From positions 32,001 through 96,000 of IMG/VR virus record IMGVR_UViG_3300037067_015270: 64,000 nucleotides of DNA; one strand, given 5' to 3'. Origin of the DNA: a virus (lineage: Duplodnaviria > Caudoviricetes). Each line of letters opens with the position of its first letter. Position 1 is the stretch's first letter. The notes under the pieces were generated by a model. It made no database searches. It saw nothing but the letters and a program-made list of their open reading frames with translations, and was not told the origin of the DNA. The translations under genes and the position numbers were made by a program. This document shows positions 8,710 to 58,758 of this stretch, piece by piece.

Positions 8710-11106
8710 ATGCTAATAGACAGACTTACAGGCGAATTAGCCAATCAATTTATAGATTGCAATTTACCTATATCAGAAAAGCATTTTGTTGAAGTATCAT
8801 GCTCTTGTGGCACTATAGTAAAGTTAAGCACAAGAGCTCTATCGCGAAAATGGGGAGCTAAAGGTTATTATTTGTGTAAAAGCTGTTCTGTTAAATCATA
8901 CATAGACAATCCAGAGCGTCTTGAAAAATGGCAGCAGTCGTTTACAAAGACCGCAGCGACATTAGAGCATAAGGCAAGATGTTCCAAAGCAGCAAAAAAA
9001 CTATGGAATACTCCTGAATTGCGGCAACGAGTAACAGAATCAGTTAGGCAAGATAATAAGACTAACCCCAAGAAAGCTACATCAAGAGCAATCGCACTAA
9101 AGGCACTAAAGGATAAGTCTTGGTTTAAAGATCACATGGCCAAGATAAGAATACTGGCACATAGAGCTATTAAGATAAGCCTAGATAATGATTCTGATAA
9201 ATGGCGAGATCTAGCTAAAAACTTTCACTTTGAACGACCAGAGGTAAAAGAAAAACACAAAGCATCAGCGAATAATGGAAATAAAAGACAACAAAGACAG
9301 CAAATTATATGTAGAAGTTATGAAGAGTTAGACGACGACATTAAGAATAGTAGCGACTACCAAAATAATATTATTACTATTCTTGACCACGAAAGACGTA
9401 AAGCAGAATTAGCATCTATACAAATTCCGCCAAAGCGTAAAAGAGCTAAACATAACAGTATAGAGCATAAGACGAAATTGTCAGAAGCATCGAAAATACG
9501 ATGGAAAAACGAGGAATATAGAGCCAAGATAAGAAATATTGTTAATAGTGAAAAGTATAAGACAAAGATGGCAGAATATCGCGATACCGAATATAGAGAA
9601 AGAATGAGATTTGTGGCTATAGCTCAATGGAGTGATCCTCTTTACTTAGAAAAAATGAGGAAATTATGGGAAGATCGAGAATATAAAGAAATGATGAGAA
9701 CTATATCAAAAGCGCAATGGGAGGATAAAGAATATAGAGAGAAAATGATATCTATTTTTAATAGTGAAGAATATAGAGAGAAAATTAAAATTGTTTGGAA
9801 TGACCCAACCTACAGAGAGAAAATAATAACTGCAATTAAATCGCAATGGAATAATCCAGAATATAGAAAGAAAATAAAAGCAATACAAAATGACCCAGCT
9901 TTCAAGAAAAAAGTAGCATCTGCAGCCAAAGTGCAATGGAAGAATCCAGAATATAGAAAGAAGATGCATCAGATATTTTCTTCTCCTGAAATCAGAGAGA
10001 AAATATCTGATGCATCTAAGATACGATGGGAAAAAAAAGAATTTAGAGAAAAAATAGAAGCAATAGTCAAATTACAATGGTCGAATAAAAAACGATTAGA
10101 AAAAGCATCCATAAACTCTAAGATACTATGGCAAAATGAAGAATATAAAGATAGACATAAGAAAGCTATGGCTTCTCCTGAGGTCAGAGAAAAACAGGCT
10201 ATAGCCAGGGCTGCACAATCAGGACAGATTTCATCCATACAAAAAACACTATATTCTTATTTGGATGGACTTAAAGTAGAATACTATAAAGAAAGCGAGC
10301 AAACGCGAGTCGGATTTTATGTTTTTGATTGTTTGGTTGTCAATGGTGATAAAAAATTATTGATTGAATGCCAAGGAGACTATTGGCATTCATTAGAAAA
10401 TGCAGAACGAAATGATCGGTCTAAATTTACTTATATTTCTAGATATTTCCCAGAATACGAAATAATGTATGTCTGGGAGCACGAATTTTATTGTAAAGAT
10501 AGAGTATTAGATCGGTTAAAATTGAAATTGGGAATTGATATAGATACTGTCGATTTTAATTTTTCCGATTTAACAATAAGAGAAATTAATAGCACAGAAA
10601 CCAAAACGTTCTTAGATCTTTATCATTATCTAGGTAAAGATCGCGGCGGTAAAACAATAGGTGTCTTCAATGGTGACTTGTTAATCGCTGCTATTGTTTT
10701 TAGTCCTCCACTACGGCAAAATACAGCTGGTCAATTCGATTTGGCTGATGATGAAGTCAGAGAATTATCTAGATTATGTATACATCCTTCCTATCACAAG
10801 AAGAACTTCGCTAGTTGGTTTATCAAACGAGCACTTAAACTGACAGATTGTAAGCTTGTTGTAGCTTATGCCGATACAACTGTTGGACATGATGGTGGAA
10901 TTTACAAAGCAAGCAATTTTAAGTTACATCACACTGTACCAGCAGACTACTGGTATGTAGACAATTCTGGCTATGTGATGCACAAAAGAACACTCTACGG
11001 GCGTGCAGTAAAACAGAAAATGACAGAATCAGAGTTTGCAGAAGCAAAAGGTTATATCCGTAAATATGGTGGTGAAAAATTATGTTTTGTATATAATCAA
11101 AAATAA
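8710..11106 (+). CDS. Fusion: W-x-D/N-P-E-Y-R-E-K helical repeats + DUF559/Vsr-like endonuclease + Mom-like GNAT domain
   Basis: Many WxxxEYREK repeats. Nuclease motif FDCL...LLIECQGDYWH...D...YEIMYVWEHE. C-terminal ELSRL and VAYADTTVGHDGGIYKASNF (Mom family). Confidence 0.7.
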   Translation: MLIDRLTGELANQFIDCNLPISEKHFVEVSCSCGTIVKLSTRALSRKWGAKGYYLCKSCSVKSYIDNPERLEKWQQSFTKTAATLEHKARCSKAAKKLWNTPELRQRVTESVRQDNKTNPKKATSRAIALKALKDKSWFKDHMAKIRILAHRAIKISLDNDSDKWRDLAKNFHFERPEVKEKHKASANNGNKRQQRQQIICRSYEELDDDIKNSSDYQNNIITILDHERRKAELASIQIPPKRKRAKHNSIEHKTKLSEASKIRWKNEEYRAKIRNIVNSEKYKTKMAEYRDTEYRERMRFVAIAQWSDPLYLEKMRKLWEDREYKEMMRTISKAQWEDKEYREKMISIFNSEEYREKIKIVWNDPTYREKIITAIKSQWNNPEYRKKIKAIQNDPAFKKKVASAAKVQWKNPEYRKKMHQIFSSPEIREKISDASKIRWEKKEFREKIEAIVKLQWSNKKRLEKASINSKILWQNEEYKDRHKKAMASPEVREKQAIARAAQSGQISSIQKTLYSYLDGLKVEYYKESEQTRVGFYVFDCLVVNGDKKLLIECQGDYWHSLENAERNDRSKFTYISRYFPEYEIMYVWEHEFYCKDRVLDRLKLKLGIDIDTVDFNFSDLTIREINSTETKTFLDLYHYLGKDRGGKTIGVFNGDLLIAAIVFSPPLRQNTAGQFDLADDEVRELSRLCIHPSYHKKNFASWFIKRALKLTDCKLVVAYADTTVGHDGGIYKASNFKLHHTVPADYWYVDNSGYVMHKRTLYGRAVKQKMTESEFAEAKGYIRKYGGEKLCFVYNQK

Positions 11107-24422: not shown

Positions 24423-24740
24423 CTACACAGACTTTCTAAGATACTTATAGTAGATAATCATCGTTAACCATATAGTATTGGCGACGGCTAATACGAATCC
24501 ACCGATAAAAGAAATAAATTGCCCGAGATATGAGTAATAATACAAATTCCAATATCCCCAAACAACGAAGAATGATATAGCAGGCCAAGAAATACCTTTT
24601 ACTGCTTTGTCTTTATAAAGAGTTTGAATATGCAAGAACACAAACCAACCACCAAGAAACTCAAACAATCCATTAATTATATCTGGCACTCTAGACTTTC
24701 CTATGACATATTGTCTGCTTAGTATAATACTCTGGATCAC
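24423..24740 (-). CDS. Small three-helix membrane protein (PQ-loop/SemiSWEET-like)
   Basis: LYKDKAVKGISWPAISFFVVWGYWNLYYY. True start is probably the GTG near 24689. Confidence 0.55.
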   Translation of the reverse strand: MIQSIILSRQYVIGKSRVPDIINGLFEFLGGWFVFLHIQTLYKDKAVKGISWPAISFFVVWGYWNLYYYSYLGQFISFIGGFVLAVANTIWLTMIIYYKYLRKSV

Positions 24741-26211
24741 GCCATTTAGCTTTCATTGCACAGCTATGGCAGCGGTATGGAAGCTTCAGTGATTTTCTCT
24801 TAATGCGTTTCTTAGTACCGCACTCACATATCACATCGACATATTCTTCCATATTAGTGTCTATTCTTTTCGGCTTATTTTTATATATGCCGTTTTCCCA
24901 ACATTTCGAAATACTGCAAGAGTGGCATATATATGCGCCATGACGTTGTACAGATTTTGCTAATGCTTTCTTAGAAACGAGAAATTCGCAACCACATTTT
25001 GAACATACAGTGCTGAATTGTGTGATTTTCTCGACAACTTGCACATCTGTTTTACGCATCCAGAATATGAATCTATTTTTAGGTTCTGTGTCGACACGCG
25101 CCAAATTACGCTGTTCTGCATATTTTTTCTCTGTCAACCCAAATTTTCTAGAATAATCCCACACTACCTTTTTATGAATCAAACCCCCATTTACATCTCT
25201 ATAATAGTAACTAGGCTTTGTCTTTCCATCACAAATCCAGTTACTAGCTGTATAAATTGTACCATCATGCCCAAAATGTGTATCGGCAAAAGAAACAACC
25301 AATGATATTTCTGGTTTATTTATTTTAAGCATCTTCAAGCATCGACTTATTGTCCAGCTCGCCAAATTTTTAACGTGATATGAATCATGTAATACAAATC
25401 TGGATAATTCGACCACTTTAGATGCCGGAACACCATGTCTGTTAACGACCGAATTATAGCTTGGTTGCGCAAATATCGCAGCCCCGATTAATTTAATATT
25501 ATGATATAGCCCGATACATATCTTTGTGTTTTTACGAAAGTTCGGCAGATAATGATAACTGTTTAAAAATTCAATGGCTGTATCTTGCTTGATAATATCT
25601 AACCTCAACTCACTAAAATTCACATCTATTGTTTCGATTTCAATGCCAATAATTGATCGAATGATAGACGCAATACATCCCTTTGATATTGTATCGCATT
25701 CTTGTATATATCTTAATTGCAGATCTTGATAGTTATGCTCAATAAAAGACGCCTTTGATAAATCATTAGCAATATTATTTGGTAGTGAGTGCCAATACTC
25801 ACCTTGCACTTCTAATAATATTTTAAAATCAGGCAAATAAAAGTCGAATGTATAAGGACCAAAAACTTGTTGTTTTATGAATCTTACTTTGATCGAATCC
25901 AATACTGCTGCTACCGCTAGCTCTGGCTTAGTATCATATTTTTTAATTTGTGCTGGTAGCTCACCAGATTTTCTTCTTTTAGCAACGTTTAAAGCATTTT
26001 CACGTGCTCTAGATTTATGCAACTCAGAATTAAAATATACGGAGCGTTTTGCTTTAGCTGAATCCGTTTGTAGCCTATCGACTTTCTTGGAAGCGGCCAC
26101 CATGGCTGGGGTGGGATTTTTACATCGTTCCTTGATATATCTAGATATTTTACAAGCTAAACAATCTGGATCAGACCCTTTTATGTGACCGTATTTACAA
26201 TACTTTGACAT
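24691..26211 (-). CDS. DUF559/Vsr-like endonuclease + Mom-like GNAT + Zn ribbons
   Basis: TKPE...FDFYLPDFKILLEVQGEYWH nuclease motif, ELSRF, VSFADTHFGHDGTIYTASNW, and C-terminal CxxC pairs. Confidence 0.7.
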   Translation of the reverse strand: MSKYCKYGHIKGSDPDCLACKISRYIKERCKNPTPAMVAASKKVDRLQTDSAKAKRSVYFNSELHKSRARENALNVAKRRKSGELPAQIKKYDTKPELAVAAVLDSIKVRFIKQQVFGPYTFDFYLPDFKILLEVQGEYWHSLPNNIANDLSKASFIEHNYQDLQLRYIQECDTISKGCIASIIRSIIGIEIETIDVNFSELRLDIIKQDTAIEFLNSYHYLPNFRKNTKICIGLYHNIKLIGAAIFAQPSYNSVVNRHGVPASKVVELSRFVLHDSYHVKNLASWTISRCLKMLKINKPEISLVVSFADTHFGHDGTIYTASNWICDGKTKPSYYYRDVNGGLIHKKVVWDYSRKFGLTEKKYAEQRNLARVDTEPKNRFIFWMRKTDVQVVEKITQFSTVCSKCGCEFLVSKKALAKSVQRHGAYICHSCSISKCWENGIYKNKPKRIDTNMEEYVDVICECGTKKRIKRKSLKLPYRCHSCAMKAKWRDPEYYTKQTICHRKV

Positions 26212-52026: not shown

Positions 52027-52842
52027 TTACCAGTCTCCGCCAGACCCACCCCCGCCAAAATCGCCACTACCGCCAGAGTAGCTACTATCACTACTGCTGC
52101 CTCCGCTACTACCCCCACTACCAGCAATGTCGCTGATCACACTACAAATACCGCCACCGCCACTATTGGATACTACTATAGCAATGATAATCAGGATGAC
52201 AATTGCTATGAGTATGATCGTAGCGATACCCCAACCGGTAAGCCAAAAACTAACCGCTGCGGCCCCTGCAACTGCACTAGCCGCAGCGAGCGGGGTCGTG
52301 GATTTTTGTTCAGCTTCCGCCCGCCCTTCAATACGGGTTAGCATAGCATTGATAGCTACTTCGATTCCACCAGCATAGTTTCCAGCCTTGAATTGTGGTT
52401 TAACTTGCTCAGCGAGAATACGGCGACAGACAACATCGGTCAGCTTGTCGCCAATACCACGGCCAGTAGTAATCCATGTTTTGTGTTCTTTGACCGCGAT
52501 GACAAATAGAACGCCATTGTCCTTATCCTTTTGGCCAAGTTTCCATGACTTGGCAGTTTCAATAGCGAATTGGCTGATATCCCTGCCATTCAATGTTGAA
52601 ACAGTAAGAATGACGATCTGATTGCCGGTTTTCTTCTCATATGCAAGAAGAGAATCGCTAAGACTCTTGACTTGGGCCTCGGTGAGAATCTTAGCATCGT
52701 CGTTCACCGGCCCACGCAGAGTTGGTATAAAAGAAGCGGCGCGTGCTTTCTGAATCGCCGGAATCAGCAATCCAGCCAGAATGCCGATAATGGCGATGAC
52801 TACAAGTAATTCGACGAGTGTAAAACCATGTTTGCGTTTCAT
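52027..52842 (-). CDS. TPM (YgcG) domain protein with a prepilin-type N-terminal cleavage/methylation leader
   Basis: Leader [32 protein letters not shown] domain VNDDAKIL...[13 protein letters not shown]...GRG...[14 protein letters not shown] helix and [13 protein letters not shown] tail. Confidence 0.85.
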
Positions 52843-53069
52843 TCTTCTCCTCCACAGCCTCCTAGAAATGGGGTAGTAACGGTTGTATAGCCTTTCGCGA
52901 CAGATTGATACAGACGCAGCCCTTGCCTTAAAATCTGTTCCGGCGTAAGTTCTGTCGTCTTACACAACTCGTCGATAGCCGCAGCTTCTTCTGGTGTTGC
53001 GTGGAATTCGATAACCACCATTTTAGTGGAGCCTCCGACGAACCTCAGTTTATGAATTAGACCAGACAC
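52839..53069 (-). CDS. Small ribbon-helix-helix-like protein
   Basis: [24 protein letters not shown]. Confidence 0.45.
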
Positions 53070-53672
53070 CTAGAATTCCACTTTCGGTGCCGTCTTTGCA
53101 GCTTCGACTGCCTCGAAGTTAGCCCATTTCTTGAAGCCGTGGCTGTTGGCTACTATACCAGAAAACAAGCCACCAATTGTGATATTTTGTTCCTTGACCG
53201 CTTTGTTATATCGGTCGCGCTCTTCCTTAATACGATTCTCGGTACCTTCAAGCTGCGATTGGAGGTCCTTGAAATTCTCGTTAGCCTTCAATTCAGGATA
53301 CTTCTCCTGTACCACCATCAAGCGAGACAAGGCCGACGACAGATCACCTTGGGCCTCTGCAAACTTCTTCATCTGAGCAGGATCAGCAGAAGCCGCGTTA
53401 ATATTGATCTGTCCGACCTTCGCCCGAGCATTAGTGACGTTCGTGAAGGTATCTTGCTCGTGCTTCGCGTAGCCCTTCACGACACTGACGAGGTTTGGAA
53501 TGAGATCGAGCCGCCGTTGGAGAGCAGATCCGACGTTAGCAAGCTTCTCTTCGCAGGTGTTATTGCCGACGTTGAGAGAACTATAGCAGCTCCACCACGA
53601 CAGACCGGCGATGACGACGATTAGTAATACGACACCAACAAGACCCAATGCAGCCCAAAGACAACCCTTCAT
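53070..53672 (-). CDS. lemA: LemA family protein
   Basis: QRRLDLIPNLV..VKGYAKHE and EKYPELKANENFKDLQSQLEGTENRI. Confidence 0.92.
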   Translation of the reverse strand: MKGCLWAALGLVGVVLLIVVIAGLSWWSCYSSLNVGNNTCEEKLANVGSALQRRLDLIPNLVSVVKGYAKHEQDTFTNVTNARAKVGQININAASADPAQMKKFAEAQGDLSSALSRLMVVQEKYPELKANENFKDLQSQLEGTENRIKEERDRYNKAVKEQNITIGGLFSGIVANSHGFKKWANFEAVEAAKTAPKVEF

Positions 53673-53857: not shown

Positions 53858-54430
53858 TCAGTTTTGTGGTCGTATGCCGTCCTGTGGCCCCTGCTTAGTT
53901 TGCGACGTCTTCGCTGCTTGTTCATTGAACAGCGACAAGGTATTACCAATTGGTATTCCACCGACATTTGCCTTGGTAACGGCACTTTCGATCTTCTTGA
54001 TGCTACTGGACTCGCTGATGTGAGACATGACACCGAAGATGCTTGCATAGGCACAAGCTTCAATCTTCTGCTCATCGGTTAGTTTATCAAAATGCATTAC
54101 AGCAATCTTCTCACGTCCGCATCGCGCTTTCCTGCGCATCGACTTCATATCACCACGCCGTTTGATGAGATTGTCCTCTCCCATCATATTGCGGAAGCAA
54201 CGAGCATACCGGTCCCAGTCAATATATACATTGTAATCTTGCAGCAAATGCTTCTTAGCTGTCGTGATGCTTCCATACTTGACAGGCTGGCCGATTGCAG
54301 CACTCAACTCCTCCTTGGTGACACTCTTCTCGGGAGTATCCAAACCCCTGAACATAGCGATGACCGTTCGTGTCGCCTCGCTCATGACCTTGATTGGTTG
54401 TCGTGGTGGTACGAATTGTGCTTCTGACAT
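53858..54430 (-). CDS. Hypothetical protein, candidate accessory factor of the RAMP/array system (winged-helix-like N-terminus)
   Basis: 190 aa. Lies between array units and the terminator. VTKEELSAAIGQPV. Confidence 0.6.
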   Translation of the reverse strand: MSEAQFVPPRQPIKVMSEATRTVIAMFRGLDTPEKSVTKEELSAAIGQPVKYGSITTAKKHLLQDYNVYIDWDRYARCFRNMMGEDNLIKRRGDMKSMRRKARCGREKIAVMHFDKLTDEQKIEACAYASIFGVMSHISESSSIKKIESAVTKANVGGIPIGNTLSLFNEQAAKTSQTKQGPQDGIRPQN

Positions 54431-54481
54431 CTCATAACCCTTTCAATTAGTGATGAAACATAAACAGTACTCAGTAAGGAC

Positions 54482-54856
54482 GCTTGTGTTGTCGTGTGGA
54501 GGCTAATCCGGTCACGTCTCGTCTTGACATGGCCAGTGCAGATCTTTGTGTTCGGCGAGTCACTGCTCACCGGGTTATCGAGTCCCGTCAAATTGAATGA
54601 ATGATTGCAAACGAATCTCGTGTTGTGCGGTTGGATCGTGTACCGTGCGGTAACGTTGAGTCATAACATGTCAGGACGCAAGTTGTCATATCGTAAGCTG
54701 TCGCATCGCGTACTGGATCAATCATACAAAAATATCCTCCACCGGTCAATTGACCGGTGGAGGCTCGTGTTATCGGGTCACATTCCGACTAATTCGGTCA
54801 TATCAAGACCCGTACTGTCTCGTGCCATCGAGGCACATGCTGGCGCGATGCGTCAG
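54482..54856 (-). ncRNA. Three pentamer-periodic candidate guide units downstream of the RAMP gene (54486-54596, 54620-54719, 54767-54856)
   Basis: On +, RYN-NN pentamers in register after a GCTT/ATCTC/GCTC leader, e.g. gtg tt atc gg gtc ac att cc gac ta att cg gtc at. Confidence 0.75.
54728..54763 (-). terminator. Perfect 28 bp palindrome followed by a U-tract
   Basis: CCTCCACCGGTCAATTGACCGGTGGAGG (54736-54763), then ATATTTTT on the minus strand. Confidence 0.7.
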
Positions 54857-55452
54857 TCCTGCTTCACCCAGGTCAGTTTCTCGACACTGAACCGACCGTA
54901 ATAGCCGTTATTGCGCGGGCGGAAGAAGCCGATACCGATGAACCGACCGGCTTCTTGGATGTGCTTCAGGAAGATCTCCTCGGTAATCGACTCTTCCAAG
55001 ATGTGGAATACGACGTCCACTTCCCAATTGTTGATGATCGGGAAGCACTTCCAAACGCGCTTGCTGCCGCCGCGTTTGCCGTCGCTGGGCACATACAACC
55101 AAATGCTCTCGACGTTCTCGGCGATATCGGGCAAGACGATCGGTTCGGGGTCGACCAAGGTACCGGCCTCGAAGTACTTCGTATACGTCGCCTTGCCTTT
55201 GCCCGGCACTTGCATCGACAGGTATTTCGCCGCCTCGGCAAGACAATTCTTGAACGCCATCGGCGGGATGAAGACGTGACCGGCGTTGGGGCCGTCCTTC
55301 ATGATATGGAGCCGATTGCGCCAGGTCCGCTTCTCGTAGTCATCCGGTCGCTCCTTGTCGTTCTTCGGGACGTCCATGACGTAGTTGCGACTTTGGCCGT
55401 AGGGCGAGACACCTTTCAGACGAACAGTAGCAGTAATCATAGTAGCATTCAC
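54853..55452 (-). CDS. Stand-alone RAMP (Cas7-like) protein
   Basis: First strand VRLKGVSP, HVFIPPMAFKNCLAEAA (cf. IPGSSLKG) and C-terminal Gly-rich loop GRFIGIGFFRPRNNGYYGRF. The start may be the ATG at 55440. Confidence 0.8.
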   Translation of the reverse strand: MNATMITATVRLKGVSPYGQSRNYVMDVPKNDKERPDDYEKRTWRNRLHIMKDGPNAGHVFIPPMAFKNCLAEAAKYLSMQVPGKGKATYTKYFEAGTLVDPEPIVLPDIAENVESIWLYVPSDGKRGGSKRVWKCFPIINNWEVDVVFHILEESITEEIFLKHIQEAGRFIGIGFFRPRNNGYYGRFSVEKLTWVKQD

Positions 55453-55656
55453 TCCAGTAACATAGGGTTAGAAAGAAAGTAACAGAGAAACAGAAGCTTG
55501 TCTTGATCTATCACATTCAGGGCGGACTAATCTGATCATGTCTAAGCCCGAGCGGGTAGTAGATCGTGTGTTCGATGTTTGGAAAATAGCGCTTGTCATG
55601 TCAAATACCGTCTCAGGTGGGCGTGGCCGGTACTGGGCCGTTCCGCCGCATACTTG

Positions 55657-55685
55657 GTTATAGCACCAATGAAGTGTGTTCTTAA
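55657..55685 (-). promoter_or_regulatory. Promoter TTAAGA-N17-TATAAC (extended -10) for an array unit
   Basis: Exact 17 nt spacing, GTGC immediately before -10. Confidence 0.65.
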
Positions 55686-55773
55686 TTACAAATGAAGCTT
55701 GTCGCGTCGTGTCAGGTTGAATTCGGTGCTGTCATGTCATGGCCCGTCAAAATTGGTCTTGTCGAGCCGATGT

Positions 55774-55802
55774 GTTATAGCACCAGCGAAGCGATTTATT
55801 AA
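55774..55802 (-). promoter_or_regulatory. Promoter TTAATA-N17-TATAAC for an array unit
   Basis: Exact 17 nt spacing, GTGC before -10. Confidence 0.65.
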
Positions 55803-55907
55803 TTGCAAAAGCTTGTCTTGTCATAAGCTGTCGAGTCCCACCTTGTAATGTCGGAGATCGTCGGTACTCGAAGCGGCCTGTCGTGCCGCGTCTGGTCGCG
55901 TCTAGCT

Positions 55908-55936
55908 GTTGTAGCACAAACGAAGTGATTTATTGA
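55908..55936 (-). promoter_or_regulatory. Promoter TCAATA-N17-TACAAC for an array unit
   Basis: Same layout as its neighbours. Confidence 0.55.
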
Positions 55937-56499
55937 TTACAGGTATCGAGATAACACGTTGCAGTTTTTGATATATTGTTAGTGAATCAATGATGTTCGT
56001 TAGAGCGATAGTCGCGGCGATTAAGCCATCAGATCACAGTATAGCTGTCCGGGTCTAGACGTTATTATTTCCATGTTGTAAATGAAGCTCGTGTTGTCCC
56101 GTCGCAAAGCGTCGAGTCCCGACCGGGACTGGGGCGTCTGGTACTAACTTGACCAGTCCGGGTCGCGTCATTGTACTTCGTGAGTATTTGTGTGTATTAT
56201 TTAAAAGCTTGTGTCGTACTGTCCGGTCGTAGCAGAGCATGTGCCGACGAGTCAAGTGCTATCGAGATGAGTCGAAGGCTGTCAAGACGGGCTAATGCTA
56301 GTTTTATAATTGCAATCAAATGAAGCTTGTCTAGTCACGTCGAGTCGGGTCGAGTCTGGGCCGGTCAGGGGCCGTACTATAATGTCATGTCCCAACTGGT
56401 CGAGACGCGACGTGATTTCTTGTGATTTCGAAAAATGAATCTTGTGTTGTCTAATCGAGTAATGTCCCGTCGAGTGCTGTCCCAGCGGGTCATGGGCTG

Positions 56500-56715
56500 T
56501 CAAGGTCGGTCGTGTGTTATCGAGTCGCGTTGCGTCAGATGCCAATTGCCACAGTCTGGGCATTTATATGCCGCCATTCTACTAGTGGTCTCTGCCGACG
56601 ATTTGCTCGGATATTTCACCTTGCCGAGACACCCCTGTAGTCTACGAGCACGATTCTGCATCAACAGCCACTTCTGCTTTCGTCGCTCGGCGGCTGCTGA
56701 CGCAGTATGTTTCAT
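56500..56715 (-). CDS. Small Zn-binding phage protein embedded in the array
   Basis: MKHTAS...CLGKVKY...AYKCPDCGNWHLT motif. Confidence 0.55.
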   Translation of the reverse strand: MKHTASAAAERRKQKWLLMQNRARRLQGCLGKVKYPSKSSAETTSRMAAYKCPDCGNWHLTQRDSITHDRP

Positions 56716-56790
56716 AATCTTTGTCTGGTCGAGTGCTGTCTTGTCAAGTCGAGTCGCGGGGCGACTCGCGCTAACCAGTCTTACTGCTAT

Positions 56791-56819
56791 TTTATAGCAC
56801 AACATCTAGTAGTTATTAA
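56791..56819 (-). promoter_or_regulatory. Promoter TTAATA-N17-TATAAA at the 5' end of the array
   Basis: Exact 17 nt spacing, GTGC before -10. Confidence 0.65.
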
Positions 56820-56826
56820 TTCTAGA

Positions 56827-57087
56827 TCAAGTCTGCCCTGTCAGACGTCGAAATTCAGCTTCGATATCGCATTCTGTTTCAACTGTTTCATAGGCACCAA
56901 TGCTAGTACCTATAAACTCCCTGATTTTGTTCTCAATATCCAATGGAGTCATCGGCGGCTGCCAAGTCGCCTTGTATTCGACCAATTCTTCCCAACACTC
57001 GTTGCAGATATATCTCGTGCCATCGAGGATAAGCCTATCGCACATAACGTTCGGGCAGCTACGTCGATCACAAGCTAATACGCTCAT
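56827..57087 (-). CDS. Small Cys-rich phage protein
   Basis: CDRRSCPNVMCDR...YICNECWEEL. Confidence 0.6.
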   Translation of the reverse strand: MSVLACDRRSCPNVMCDRLILDGTRYICNECWEELVEYKATWQPPMTPLDIENKIREFIGTSIGAYETVETECDIEAEFRRLTGQT

Positions 57088-57090
57088 TTC

Positions 57091-57450
57091 TCAACCTCTT
57101 GGGGATACGCTGTGACGACCGGAAAGCATACCGTCGTCGTCACCAAGCAACCAGAATTGACCGAACTCATTGGTAGAAGTATAGCGATAGCTGAATTCGA
57201 AGTCCGCTGGGTCCAGGCTCACTCGCTGCAAGAACTCAACAATCTGTGCTCGCAGCTTGACCTTAATATCCTCTTCGTCGTTGCCGATCACAGCCTTCCA
57301 ATGCGTGGTCGGATGCTTCGGGACACCAACACAGCCCATTGCCCTTTTGGCATAGGCCACACTGTGCTTCTCATCGTTGATGATGAAGTGGATTTCTTTC
57401 AGAATAGCAACAATCATGATGATTCCTTTTGTTCTGGTGAGCCATACCAC
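57091..57450 (-). CDS. Hypothetical protein
   Basis: ORF in an early operon. Confidence 0.5.
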   Translation of the reverse strand: MVWLTRTKGIIMIVAILKEIHFIINDEKHSVAYAKRAMGCVGVPKHPTTHWKAVIGNDEEDIKVKLRAQIVEFLQRVSLDPADFEFSYRYTSTNEFGQFWLLGDDDGMLSGRHSVSPRG

Positions 57451-57728
57451 CTCTCTAACTCGGCCTTCGCCTCCGGAGTAAGTACTGGTGGTGGCTTCTT
57501 CGACGTTCTCTCGACCACGCCGTCGATAGCTAGCCTGTCGAGGTCCTTCGCCTCAACCCCATGTAGAGCGATGTAGTGGCGCTGCACGAGAAACGTTCCT
57601 GAGGATGCCGTGATTTCGACCATCTCACCAAACTCTTCGGCGTAGTGCTTAATTATACCTTCTACGTCCTTGTTGATATAATGGAGTGGTTCGCCGCAAG
57701 CACAGTAACCGGGTTTAATAGGCATCAC
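57414..57728 (-). CDS. Hypothetical protein
   Basis: CACGEPLHY...HYIALHG. Promoter TTACAT-N17-TATAAT at 57778-57806. Confidence 0.6.
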   Translation of the reverse strand: MMPIKPGYCACGEPLHYINKDVEGIIKHYAEEFGEMVEITASSGTFLVQRHYIALHGVEAKDLDRLAIDGVVERTSKKPPPVLTPEAKAELERWYGSPEQKESS

Positions 57729-57936
57729 GATTTAGTTTCCTTGGCATTTCGAGAAAACGACTCGATTACCTATCACCATTATAGCATAATGAACTGTTGG
57801 ATGTAATTTATAGCTATTGAATAGAAGGATGAATCAGACTTTGATGCCAATCAATCGAATACCTCAAAAGATGGGTGCACGGCTCACTAAAATCGAGCCA
57901 AGCGTGTGAGCTAATTCAAATAATACCGCGAACTTT

Positions 57937-58758
57937 CTAATCGAGATAGATGACCCTATTTGATACGTTATCATGTGAATTGGAGCCAAATTGATATACT
58001 GGCTTCTGGTTTGGATATATTATTGGTCGGTCTGGATATTTTACCGTTTGCTTTGCTGCCCACGATGTGGGAAATTGGATCATTTCCTCTTCTGGTATTC
58101 TACCAATATAGATCCAATAATTATATGGGAAGAACCAAGCAGCGTTATAATCAAATTTAATACCTTGACGATATTCTTCCGCAGACTGTATACTACCAAA
58201 ATGAACATGTGCCTGTGTCGTTTGTTCGACGAAAAACGTCCCATTAATTGCCGAACCCGCCCTTTTCACGCCCATAAGAACACAGTCGCCCATTTGATCA
58301 ACATAGAGCATAAAAGCATATTTAAAATATTGTTCACCGGGCAGCCCATCTCTACCAGTTGCTAATTGCAGATTCTCTCGAATCCATTCTGGGAATGCAA
58401 TACCACTCATAACCCTGGTATCAAGTGATTCTAGCTCATAATTCGTATACTTTATATAGCAAATGATCTTACCTTTTGCATCACAGAAATCAAGTGGTGG
58501 ATTTGGCCAGCCAGGTAATTGCTCTAATTTATTTAATTGTATCTGGTATTTATGGCCTAACTGGTTGTTAAGCCATTTTTGAAATAATCTCCCACCAAAC
58601 CTCTTAGCACACATGCTATCTAGTTTGCTTGTATCACTATTATCGACCTTATTATGTCGCTTCCCAGAGCCAAAACCAAAATGCGTCAGATTAACTTCTT
58701 GTTCAGTGCCATGGATACGAATAAGCGAGTTGATGTAGTTGATGACTTGTTGGTTCAT
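57937..58758 (-). CDS. Hypothetical protein
   Basis: 273 aa ORF. Confidence 0.6.
   Translation of the reverse strand: MNQQVINYINSLIRIHGTEQEVNLTHFGFGSGKRHNKVDNSDTSKLDSMCAKRFGGRLFQKWLNNQLGHKYQIQLNKLEQLPGWPNPPLDFCDAKGKIICYIKYTNYELESLDTRVMSGIAFPEWIRENLQLATGRDGLPGEQYFKYAFMLYVDQMGDCVLMGVKRAGSAINGTFFVEQTTQAHVHFGSIQSAEEYRQGIKFDYNAAWFFPYNYWIYIGRIPEEEMIQFPTSWAAKQTVKYPDRPIIYPNQKPVYQFGSNSHDNVSNRVIYLD

What the first reader, a model, noticed from the sequence alone, without database searches (positions are those of the whole stretch)
55815..55904. Variable dinucleotides spell a DNA methyltransferase motif I when every third (wobble) base is skipped
Seen: NN series tt at ct ga cc tt at gg tc gg tc gc ct gt gc tg gc ta. 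As codon positions 1-2 this is (L/F)(I/M)L(D/E)P(F/L)(M/I)GSGSALVA(C/W)A, i.e. LILDPFMGSGSALVACA. Established: hLDPFxGSGS/T is the SAM-binding motif of N6A/N4C DNA methyltransferases. Inference: the target is NNxNNx..., a gapped code blind to synonymous changes, aimed at the most conserved part of an MTase gene of a rival phage, mobile element or host R-M system. This is the strongest internal evidence that the NN positions carry target information, though the motif was recognised post hoc.
Basis: partly seen in the sequence, partly recalled or inferred. Interest (0 to 1): 0.93.

Follow-up and report, generated by a model that had tools for sequence, protein, structure and literature searches.

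The report
VIPR guide RNA aimed at methyltransferase
The stretch is one of 12 guide-RNA genes of a phage VIPR system, a CRISPR-like system first described in 2026. Its variable letters do spell the conserved SAM-binding motif of DNA methyltransferase genes, so the reading is right, but the mechanism is already in print.

Summary
Positions 55815-55904 hold 18 pentamers (GTC-NN on +; NN-GAC in the minus-strand RNA). Their NN series, read as codon positions 1-2, gives [FL][IM]LDPFMGSGSALVA[CW]A[Y].

It is not chance. A 13-NN pattern with one skipped base hit 26 public contigs, all in frame on motif I of PF01555 DNA methylase genes. A 9-NN pattern gave 8 viral hits, against 1 read backwards, 0 with no skip and 0 with a 2-base skip.

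The locus is a VIPR system (bioRxiv 10.64898/2026.04.26.720920). It has a 195-aa Cas7-fold protein homologous to the SUSP1 Vipr, 12 guide units and a small accessory gene.

The triplet here is GAC rather than GGY. That variant is already noted computationally (10.64898/2026.10.21.760802).

No exact target was found. The best natural matches are 15/18 NN. The owner of the targeted methylase is unresolved: a rival phage is most likely, and a host restriction-modification (R-M) system or the phage itself remain possible.

This scan has reported VIPR loci before on many other genomes, including one with methylase-directed guides. Verdict: a new member of a known kind. One new lead: a G-loop residue co-varies with the middle base of the triplet.

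The parts
55815..55904 (-). vrRNA unit U7 (the finding): 18 pentamers, 5'-(NN-GAC)n-3' in the RNA. The NN of the + strand spell [FL][IM]LDPFMGSGSALVA[CW]A[Y].
   Evidence: Matches to PF01555 genes.
55803..55814 (-). 3' end motif of U7 (RNA AAGCUUUUGCAA). The family-wide motif is AAG, 1-4 bases, then a U-run, directly after the last triplet. No stable fold is predicted downstream.
55908..55936 (-). Promoter-like element of U7: extended -10 TGCTACAAC at 55908-55916 and an upstream AT-rich hexamer. It would place the RNA start at about the first pentamer.
   Evidence: TGNTAYAAY occurs 29 times against 15.4 +/- 3.5 expected in the window, and copies at 55657, 55774 and 55908 sit just upstream of U5, U6 and U7.. 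Function is inferred.
54853..55440 (-). vipr homologue, 195 aa (P0002; the ORF list starts it 4 codons earlier at GTG). RAMP/Cas7 fold, with G-loop GIGFFRPRNNGYYGRF.
53858..54430 (-). vap-like accessory gene, 190 aa, co-oriented. It is conserved next to vipr in close relatives only. The N-terminal 15-85 residues are modelled as a winged-helix-like domain.
54486..54570 (-). vrRNA unit U1 (17 pentamers). The same guide is present in relatives L036 and L045.
54620..54719 (-). vrRNA unit U2 (20 pentamers).
54767..54856 (-). vrRNA unit U3 (18 pentamers). It starts at the vipr stop codon.
54736..54763 (-). Intrinsic terminator after U3: a 12-bp stem followed by a U-run.
55500..55584 (-). vrRNA unit U4 (17 pentamers; the triplets are degenerate).
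55595..55659 (-). vrRNA unit U5 (13 pentamers).
55701..55775 (-). vrRNA unit U6 (15 pentamers).
56091..56170 (-). vrRNA unit U8 (16 pentamers).
56211..56295 (-). vrRNA unit U9 (17 pentamers).
   Evidence: No target was found.
56329..56413 (-). vrRNA unit U10 (17 pentamers). The guide is largely conserved in L045 and L046.
   Evidence: No target was found.
56444..56543 (-). vrRNA unit U11 (20 pentamers). Its 5' part overlaps the end of a 71-aa ORF.
56723..56792 (-). vrRNA unit U12 (14 pentamers).

Best explanation
The stretch 55815-55904 is the guide part of one vrRNA gene (U7) of a VIPR system carried by an uncultured large phage.

How it is built. The RNA is read from the minus strand, from its own extended -10 promoter, as 5'-(NN-GAC)x18-AAGCUU-U-run.

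How it should work, by homology with the SUSP1 system. One protomer of the 195-aa Cas7-fold Vipr protein (54853-55440) binds each pentamer. It buries the GAC triplet and presents the two variable bases. These dinucleotides pair with a DNA strand in which every third base is skipped. The filament forms a gapped R-loop and blocks transcription.

What U7 is written against. Its dinucleotides are complementary to codon positions 1-2 of the SAM-binding motif I (ILDPFMGSGSALVAC-A) of a beta-class N6A/N4C DNA methyltransferase gene (PF01555). Synonymous changes therefore cannot break the match, and non-synonymous escape would hit the catalytic core. The gene most likely belongs to a competing phage or other mobile element. 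Silencing its orphan methylase would leave that element's DNA unprotected.

Shown here: the array anatomy, the homology and fold of the protein, the in-frame 1-skip match to real methylase genes, and the controls.
Inferred: transcription, filament formation, DNA binding, silencing, and who owns the target.
For: (1) Protein.
- P0001 matches the SUSP1 Vipr (YP_009199429) at 39% identity over 66 aa, E 3e-12. hhalign gives probability 97%, E 1e-10 over 112 columns.
- The SUSP1 hit lies between GGT-NN arrays, as published.
- The AF2 model has pLDDT 87.6. Its best PDB matches are Cas7 of type VII and Csm3 of type III (E 4e-7, probability 1.00).
- The protein has 2820 homologues of about 185-195 aa.

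(2) RNA genes.
- 12 units of 13-20 pentamers flank vipr on its strand. The triplet is conserved and the NN are uninformative.
- The same architecture is seen in 10 related loci.

(3) Code.
- U7 under 1-nt skip gives 26 exact 13-NN hits, all in frame on motif I.
- L035 is PF01555 at 9e-40. L006 and L044 are PF01555 at 9e-31 and 5e-30.
- The best matches are 15/18 NN, in L035 and L044. This is above the >=80% cut-off used in the VIPR paper.
- Controls: backwards 1 hit, skip-0 none, skip-2 none, against 8 real hits.

(4) L006, matching 14/18 NN, is a phage contig. Its methylase lies between a DnaB-like helicase gene and a second methylase, terminase and portal genes.

(5) No self-target and no PF01555 gene in the 122.5 kb held.

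(6) The mechanism and the wobble logic are published for SUSP1.
Against: - No exact or near-exact (17-18/18) natural target was found in the viral, genome or metagenome collections. The matches may therefore reflect family-level motif conservation only.
- The 13-NN hits are in high-GC Acidimicrobiia/Actinomycetes MAGs, while the phage has 41-45% GC. They are unlikely to be the real target.
- U9 and U10 gave no target, so the rule rests on one guide here.
- In SUSP1 a GGY>GAY change abolishes silencing. The GAC scaffold therefore needs a re-specified pocket, which is inferred, not shown.
- No structured 3' tail like the SUSP1 pseudoknot is predicted.
- Expression could not be checked.
- The record is only about 34% complete, so an own methylase gene cannot be excluded.
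Confidence: 0.72

Rival explanations
1. Same VIPR guide, but the target is a host methyltransferase of a restriction-modification or other defence system. One example is a type III Mod subunit, which is PF01555 and is needed for restriction. On this reading the guide is an anti-defence tool rather than a weapon against rival phages.
For: - All 12 genome-contig hits are chromosomal contigs of bacterial MAGs.
- The L035 gene is a 499-aa PF01555 protein, larger than typical phage orphan methylases.
- Earlier notes of this scan report VIPR guides matching restriction genes in other genomes (not checked here).
Against: - Those MAGs are high-GC Actinobacteria, an unlikely host for a 41-45% GC phage.
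- Transcriptional silencing does not remove enzyme already present at infection.
- The distinctive Cys codon (VACA) of the guide fits the small (~220-260 aa) methylases found in phage contigs: L006, L044 and the P0123-P0242 family.
- Published natural VIPR targets are mostly mobile elements.
Confidence: 0.15
2. The guide regulates a methyltransferase gene of the phage itself, lying in the unsequenced two thirds of the genome. This would be temporal self-regulation of DNA modification.
For: - The record is estimated at 34% complete.
- The phage invests in DNA modification, with two Mom-family genes.
Against: - There is no PF01555 gene and no >50% NN match for any of the 12 guides in the 122.5 kb held.
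- The VIPR paper found no self-targeting among hundreds of guides.
- The close relative L036 lacks a U7-like guide.
Confidence: 0.07
3. The resemblance to motif I is a post hoc coincidence. The NN of this unit carry no methylase-related information.
For: - The motif was recognised after decoding.
- 12 units x 2 orientations were available to inspect.
- No exact target is known.
Against: - A motif-blind pattern search returned only PF01555 motif I sites: 26 of 26 hits, in frame, against about 3e-4 expected.
- The backwards, 0-skip and 2-skip controls gave 1, 0 and 0 hits against 8.
- The other units score only 6-9 NN on the same loci.
Confidence: 0.03

Closest known systems
Type II VIPR of Escherichia phage SUSP1 and the Pseudomonas fulva prophage (Vipr + vap1 + vrRNAs; bioRxiv 10.64898/2026.04.26.720920, .720927, 10.64898/2026.10.15.759431)
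   Same: - A ~195-aa lone RAMP protein, homologous in sequence and Cas7-like in fold.
- vrRNA genes made of tandem pentamers (conserved triplet plus hypervariable NN) on the vipr strand, on both sides of the gene.
- A pyrimidine as the best-kept triplet base.
- Target match with one skipped base that falls on the codon wobble position.
- The guide sits on a catalytic core.
- No self-target.
   Different: - The triplet is G-A-Y (G at the middle position in only 3% of 202 units), whereas GGY>GAY inactivates SUSP1 vrRNA.
- SUSP1 contact residues R138, D177 and W178 align to F133, F172 and F173.
- There are 12 guides of 13-20 units (published 9-16), and several have their own promoter-like element.
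- A short AAGCUU + U-run stands in place of a predicted pseudoknot tail.
- The accessory gene has no detectable similarity to vap1.
- The carrier is a large uncultured phage, and the predicted target is a DNA methyltransferase.
Non-canonical VIPR arrays with GAC/NN or CAC/NN units (Evo-PIN/COMPASS survey, bioRxiv 10.64898/2026.10.21.760802)
   Same: The same repeat unit (GAC most common, CAC second) lies next to a Vipr-like fold. That paper likewise reads such arrays as divergent VIPR systems.
   Different: - That report is a computational census of 21 clusters. In the text I could read it gives no target analysis.
- Whether this locus is in one of its clusters could not be checked.
- Here the 1-nt skip rule is tested on a GAC-type guide, and a candidate specificity residue is named.
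Class 1 CRISPR backbone subunits (Cas7/Csm3/Cmr4; type VII Cas7, PDB 8z4j; Csm3, PDB 6xn3, 6ifn)
   Same: RRM-based RAMP fold with a G-rich loop and a beta-hairpin thumb. One protomer binds per fixed stretch of guide, and base pairing is interrupted periodically.
   Different: - There is no CRISPR array, no other cas genes and no adaptation module.
- The period is 5 nt with only 2 pairing bases, against 6 nt with 5 pairing bases.
- The target skips 1 base per 3.
- TM-scores are only about 0.5 and sequence identity is 11-21%.

Membership tests
VIPR system | Stand-alone small (~20 kDa) RAMP-fold Vipr protein outside any CRISPR-Cas locus | tested here: met
   195 aa. The AF2 model has pLDDT 87.6 and pTM 0.81. 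The Foldseek top hits are Cas7/Csm3 chains, E 4e-7. There are no Pfam hits and no cas genes among the neighbours.
VIPR system | Sequence homology to an experimentally characterised Vipr (SUSP1) | tested here: met
   tblastn E 4e-5. BLASTP 39% identity over 66 aa, E 3e-12. hhalign probability 97%, E 1e-10. The SUSP1 hit is the gene flanked by GGT-NN arrays.
VIPR system | Glycine-rich loop that contacts the triplet | tested here: met
   GIGFFRPRNNGYYGRF aligns to SUSP1 GVGDWRPR-FGRF. G169, G171, F173, R174, P175 and R176 are invariant in 34 homologues.
VIPR system | vrRNA genes next to vipr on its strand: tandem pentamers with a conserved triplet alternating with a hypervariable NN | tested here: met
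   12 units, 202 pentamers. The NN carry 0.02-0.03 bits and the triplet 0.43, 0.58 and 0.89 bits. All 16 dinucleotides are used.
VIPR system | Canonical GGY triplet (YNNGG) | tested here: not met
   The middle base is A in 65% and G in 3% of units. The locus belongs to the non-canonical GAC/NN class named in 10.64898/2026.10.21.760802.
VIPR system | 1-nt skip rule, with the skipped base on the codon wobble position | tested here: met
   For U7 only. The 1-skip patterns give 8 viral and 26 genome/metagenome hits, all but one in frame on motif I. The backwards, skip-0 and skip-2 controls give 1, 0 and 0. U9 and U10 are inconclusive.
VIPR system | Conserved structured 3' tail (pseudoknot in the SUSP1 clade) | tested here: inconclusive
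   A conserved AAGCUU(C)AUUU motif follows the last unit. The 50 nt downstream fold no better than shuffles, z -1.4 to +1.8.
VIPR system | Adjacent vap accessory gene with predicted DNA-interacting function | tested here: inconclusive
   A co-oriented 190-aa gene is conserved with vipr in 3 relatives. It shows no similarity to SUSP1 vap1. The model has pLDDT 57 overall with a confident winged-helix-like N-terminus. Fold hits to MarR/ScpB-type proteins are only weak, E 7e-3 and above.
VIPR system | No self-targeting by the element's own guides | tested here: met
   The best 1-skip match of any guide in the 122.5-kb record is 7-9 NN of 13-20. The record is incomplete.
VIPR system | vrRNA expression, Vipr-vrRNA RNP, dsDNA binding and transcriptional silencing | not testable with these tools
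N6_N4_Mtase (PF01555), for the decoded target | The decoded peptide corresponds to SAM-binding motif I (DPFxGSG) of real family members at the DNA level | tested here: met
   The pattern hits lie in genes scoring 9e-40 (L035), 9e-31 (L006) and 5e-30 (L044) against PF01555. The site falls within profile positions 160-219. 120 homologues carry ILDPFMGSG[ST][AT]GVACA.

The most novel reading that the evidence does not exclude
Two points go beyond what I found in print.

(a) One G-loop residue of Vipr may set the middle base of the vrRNA triplet. This is position 172 here, aligned to SUSP1 D177 next to W178. In 11 of 11 loci of this subfamily, F or Y goes with GAC and R goes with GGC, and the split does not track locus GC content. 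If the residue is causal, it offers mutually orthogonal VIPR scaffolds and a readable protein-RNA code.

(b) A natural GAC-type guide obeys the 1-nt skip rule and is aimed at motif I of DNA methyltransferases. This suggests that phages use VIPR to strip rivals of their protective DNA methylation.
Probability: 0.35. Interest if true: 0.55.

Novelty: new member of a known kind. Interest (0 to 1): 0.33.

Why it matters

For the field, this locus adds three things:
- A sequence-level test that the 1-nt skip rule also holds for a GAC-type (non-GGY) guide.
- A DNA methyltransferase as a predicted natural target class. I did not find this in the main text of the VIPR preprints. Supplementary tables could not be read, and a later check quoted by this scan says methylases appear among listed hits.
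- A concrete candidate residue for triplet specificity that can be tested by a single swap.

None of this changes the picture of how VIPR works.

Tried and rejected
Target searches that failed or were uninformative:
- The longer exact U7 patterns in the viral collection gave 0 hits (12 NN; NN 8-17).
- The 16-NN pattern with up to 3 mismatches was searched in 401 genomes of the phylum of one hit. Only the known hit matched.
- 9-NN searches for U10 and U9 returned 2 and 3 viral contigs with no extension beyond the required core (9-10 of 17). That is compatible with chance.
Padded with X, it had too few words.
- A search with the motif region of the L006 methylase found the abundant ILDPFMGSG[ST][AT]GVACAN family but no exact ILDPFMGSGSALVACAY.

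Other checks:
- The full U7 pattern, and the scan of all 12 guides, found nothing in the window or the whole record.
- Rfam found no family in 54000-58000.
- I tested whether NN are better conserved than triplets in guides shared with relatives. They are not significantly so: 8.3% against 11.1% differences, p 0.46.
- The sigma-70 consensus scan showed no enrichment, 4 against 3.5 expected. Only the specific extended -10 word is enriched.

Readings I dropped:
- My first idea, a TRAP-like ring protein wrapping GUC/GAC triplets with passive spacers, was dropped once the Vipr homology and the published mechanism were found.
- Reading the arrays as + strand RNA (GUC-NN) was rejected. Four things point to the minus strand: the vipr strand, the promoter words, the terminator after U3, and the pyrimidine at the third triplet position.

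Full report
**What is there.** The window is bases 32001-96000 of a 122.5-kb IMG/VR virus record, estimated at 34% complete, so it comes from a large phage. GC content is 41-45%.

Between 54486 and 56792 lie 12 units of 13-20 pentamers. They are the only such arrays in the record. On the + strand a unit reads AAGCTT, then (GTC-NN)n, then a promoter-like word. In RNA sense (minus strand) it reads 5'-(NN-GAC)n-AAGCUU(C)AUUU.

Over 202 pentamers the two N positions carry 0.02-0.03 bits and use all 16 dinucleotides. The triplet is G (60%), A (65%, with G only 3%) and C/U (93%).

It decodes to [FL][IM]L[DE]P[FL][IM]GSGSALVA[CW]A[*Y].

**What the locus is.** A literature search led to the VIPR preprints. 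VIPR consists of a lone ~20-kDa RAMP protein (Vipr) and vrRNAs made of YNNGG pentamers. The NN pair with DNA while one target base in three is skipped, usually the wobble base.

The 195-aa ORF at 54853-55440(-) passes the membership tests I could run:
- It is homologous to the Vipr of phage SUSP1: tblastn E 4e-5, BLASTP 39% over 66 aa with E 3e-12, hhalign probability 97%.
- The SUSP1 hit is the gene flanked by GGT-NN arrays.
- Its AlphaFold model (pLDDT 87.6) matches Cas7/Csm3 backbone subunits best, at E 4e-7.
- It belongs to a family of about 2800 proteins of 185-195 aa.

A co-oriented 190-aa gene follows at 53858-54430. It is conserved next to vipr only in the closest relatives. It is perhaps a winged-helix protein, on weak evidence.

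Four things point to the minus strand as the RNA strand:
- It is the vipr strand, in all 11 loci examined.
- Extended -10 words TGCTAYAAC sit just upstream of U5, U6 and U7.
- A strong terminator follows U3.
- The third triplet base is a pyrimidine, as in YNNGG.

**Is the methyltransferase reading more than chance?** I searched the U7 dinucleotides as NNx patterns without any reference to methylases.

| Pattern | Collection | Exact hits |
|---|---|---|
| 13 NN, 1-skip (26 specified bases) | genome contigs | 12 |
| 13 NN, 1-skip | metagenome contigs | 14 |
| 9 NN, 1-skip | viral contigs | 8 (7 in frame on DPFMGSGSA) |
| 9 NN, read backwards | viral contigs | 1 |
| 9 NN, no skip | viral contigs | 0 |
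| 9 NN, 2-base skip | viral contigs | 0 |

- Chance expectation for the 13-NN pattern in genome contigs is about 3e-4 (596 Gb, both strands, 4^26; my arithmetic).
- All 26 hits are in frame on ...DLVLDPFMGSGSALVAA..., with the skipped base at codon position 3 and 13-15 of 18 NN matching.
- The hit genes are PF01555 N6_N4 DNA methylases: L035 at 9e-40, L006 at 9e-31, L044 at 5e-30.
- The other 11 guides score only 6-9 NN on the same loci.

So the observation and the "gapped code" inference both stand. For this GAC-type guide, the published 1-nt skip rule is the only spacing that finds anything.

**Whose methylase?** This is unresolved. The best natural matches are 15/18 NN. One is L035, a 499-aa methylase on a metagenome contig. 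The other is L044, a 259-aa methylase reading TILDPFMGSGSAGVACAN, with mid-GC codons.

The first and last NN may not count. Seven of 12 units end with the same AA-SAC-AAGCUU, and the promoter places the RNA start at about the first pentamer. Within NN 2-17, L044 matches 15/16. Leaving out the two end units is my inference.

The guide's Cys codon (VACA) fits an abundant family of small methylases, ILDPFMGSG[ST][AT]GVACAN. One member, L006 (14/18), sits in a phage contig between a helicase gene and a second methylase, terminase and portal genes.

The 13-NN hits are in high-GC Actinobacteria MAGs, an improbable host for this phage. No exact target turned up. The held part of the phage has no PF01555 gene and no self-target.

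My ranking is a rival phage or mobile element first, then a host R-M or defence methylase, then an own gene in the unsequenced part.

**How it differs from the published systems.**
- The triplet is GAC. In SUSP1 the change GGY>GAY abolishes silencing.
- The SUSP1 residues that hold G1 and G2 (R138, D177, W178) align here to F133, F172 and F173, while the pyrimidine-pocket R179 is kept as R174.
- GAC/NN and CAC/NN arrays next to Vipr-like folds were already reported in a computational survey, so the variant itself is not new.

I did not find the following in the texts I could read. Within this one Vipr subfamily (about 60-86% identity), residue 172 co-varies with the middle base of the triplet.

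| Residue 172 | Loci | Commonest triplet | Middle base |
|---|---|---|---|
| F | window, L036, L045, L049, L052 | GAC | A 50-68%, G 6-16% |
| Y | L048, L053 | GAC | A 58-62%, G 7-9% |
| R | L047, L037, L050, L051 | GGC | G 38-73%, A 8-26% |

The split holds in 11 of 11 loci. GC content does not explain it: L052 at 60% GC uses GAC, and L051 at 47% GC uses GGC. Relatedness of the loci was not controlled, so this is a lead, not a result.

Other differences:
- Several units have their own promoter word.
- There are 12 guides of up to 20 units.
- The 3' end is a short conserved AAG...U-run with no predicted fold, instead of the SUSP1 pseudoknot.

**Verdict.** However, the mechanism was published in 2026, and this scan has already reported VIPR loci in many other genomes (199 notes in at least 152 genomes), one with methylase-directed guides. 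This is a new member of a known kind, of moderate to low interest. It carries two testable leads: methylase targeting by a GAC-type guide, and residue 172 as a determinant of triplet specificity.

Noticed in passing
window 54853-55440 (residue 172 of the 195-aa protein); loci L036, L037, L045, L047-L053: G-loop residue 172 (aligned to SUSP1 D177) co-varies with the middle base of the vrRNA triplet in 11 of 11 loci: F or Y with GAC, R with GGC. Locus GC content does not explain it. Phylogeny was not controlled.
   Followed up: partly
window 56500-56715 (-): A 71-aa ORF with a KCPDCGNWH zinc-ribbon-like motif lies between units U12 and U11. Its last ~45 bases overlap the first pentamers of U11. 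It is conserved, mostly with synonymous changes, in the relative L036.
   Followed up: partly
window 54486-54570 (U1), 56329-56413 (U10), 56500-56543 (5' part of U11); L036, L045, L046: These guides are shared, with nearly the same NN, by related phages whose Vipr is 60-86% identical. U7 and most other guides are not shared. The guide sets are therefore partly conserved and partly exchanged.
   Followed up: partly
window 55803-55814 and the equivalent 3' ends of all units; L037, L047, L049: The 3' end motif after the last unit is conserved across the subfamily as AAG, 1-4 bases, then a U-run (AAGCUUCAUUU, AAGGGAAUUUU, AAGGUUUU, AAGCAUUUU), with no hairpin. How the RNA 3' end is made is unexplained.
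   Followed up: partly
window 8710-11106 (+) and 24691-26211 (-): Two large proteins carry Mom-family domains (E 1e-22 and 1e-32), fused to REase-like (MTES_1575) or Vsr-like domains. This suggests the phage modifies its own DNA.
   Followed up: no
window 52027-53672 (-); L045, L046: A LemA-family gene and a TPM-domain gene with an N-terminal pilin-type methylation motif lie a few kb downstream of the VIPR locus in the related phages. In this window they follow the vap-like gene directly.
   Followed up: no
window 55701-55775 (U6) and 56329-56413 (U10): The + strand decodings of U6 and U10 share ...L[IM][IM]P..[DE].V. They may be two guides against related genes. No database target was found for U10, and U6 was not searched.
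   Followed up: partly
L051 3743-5073: In one relative with R172 and GGC units, the VIPR locus is followed by an HNH nuclease gene and a C5 DNA methylase gene (PF00145).
   Followed up: no
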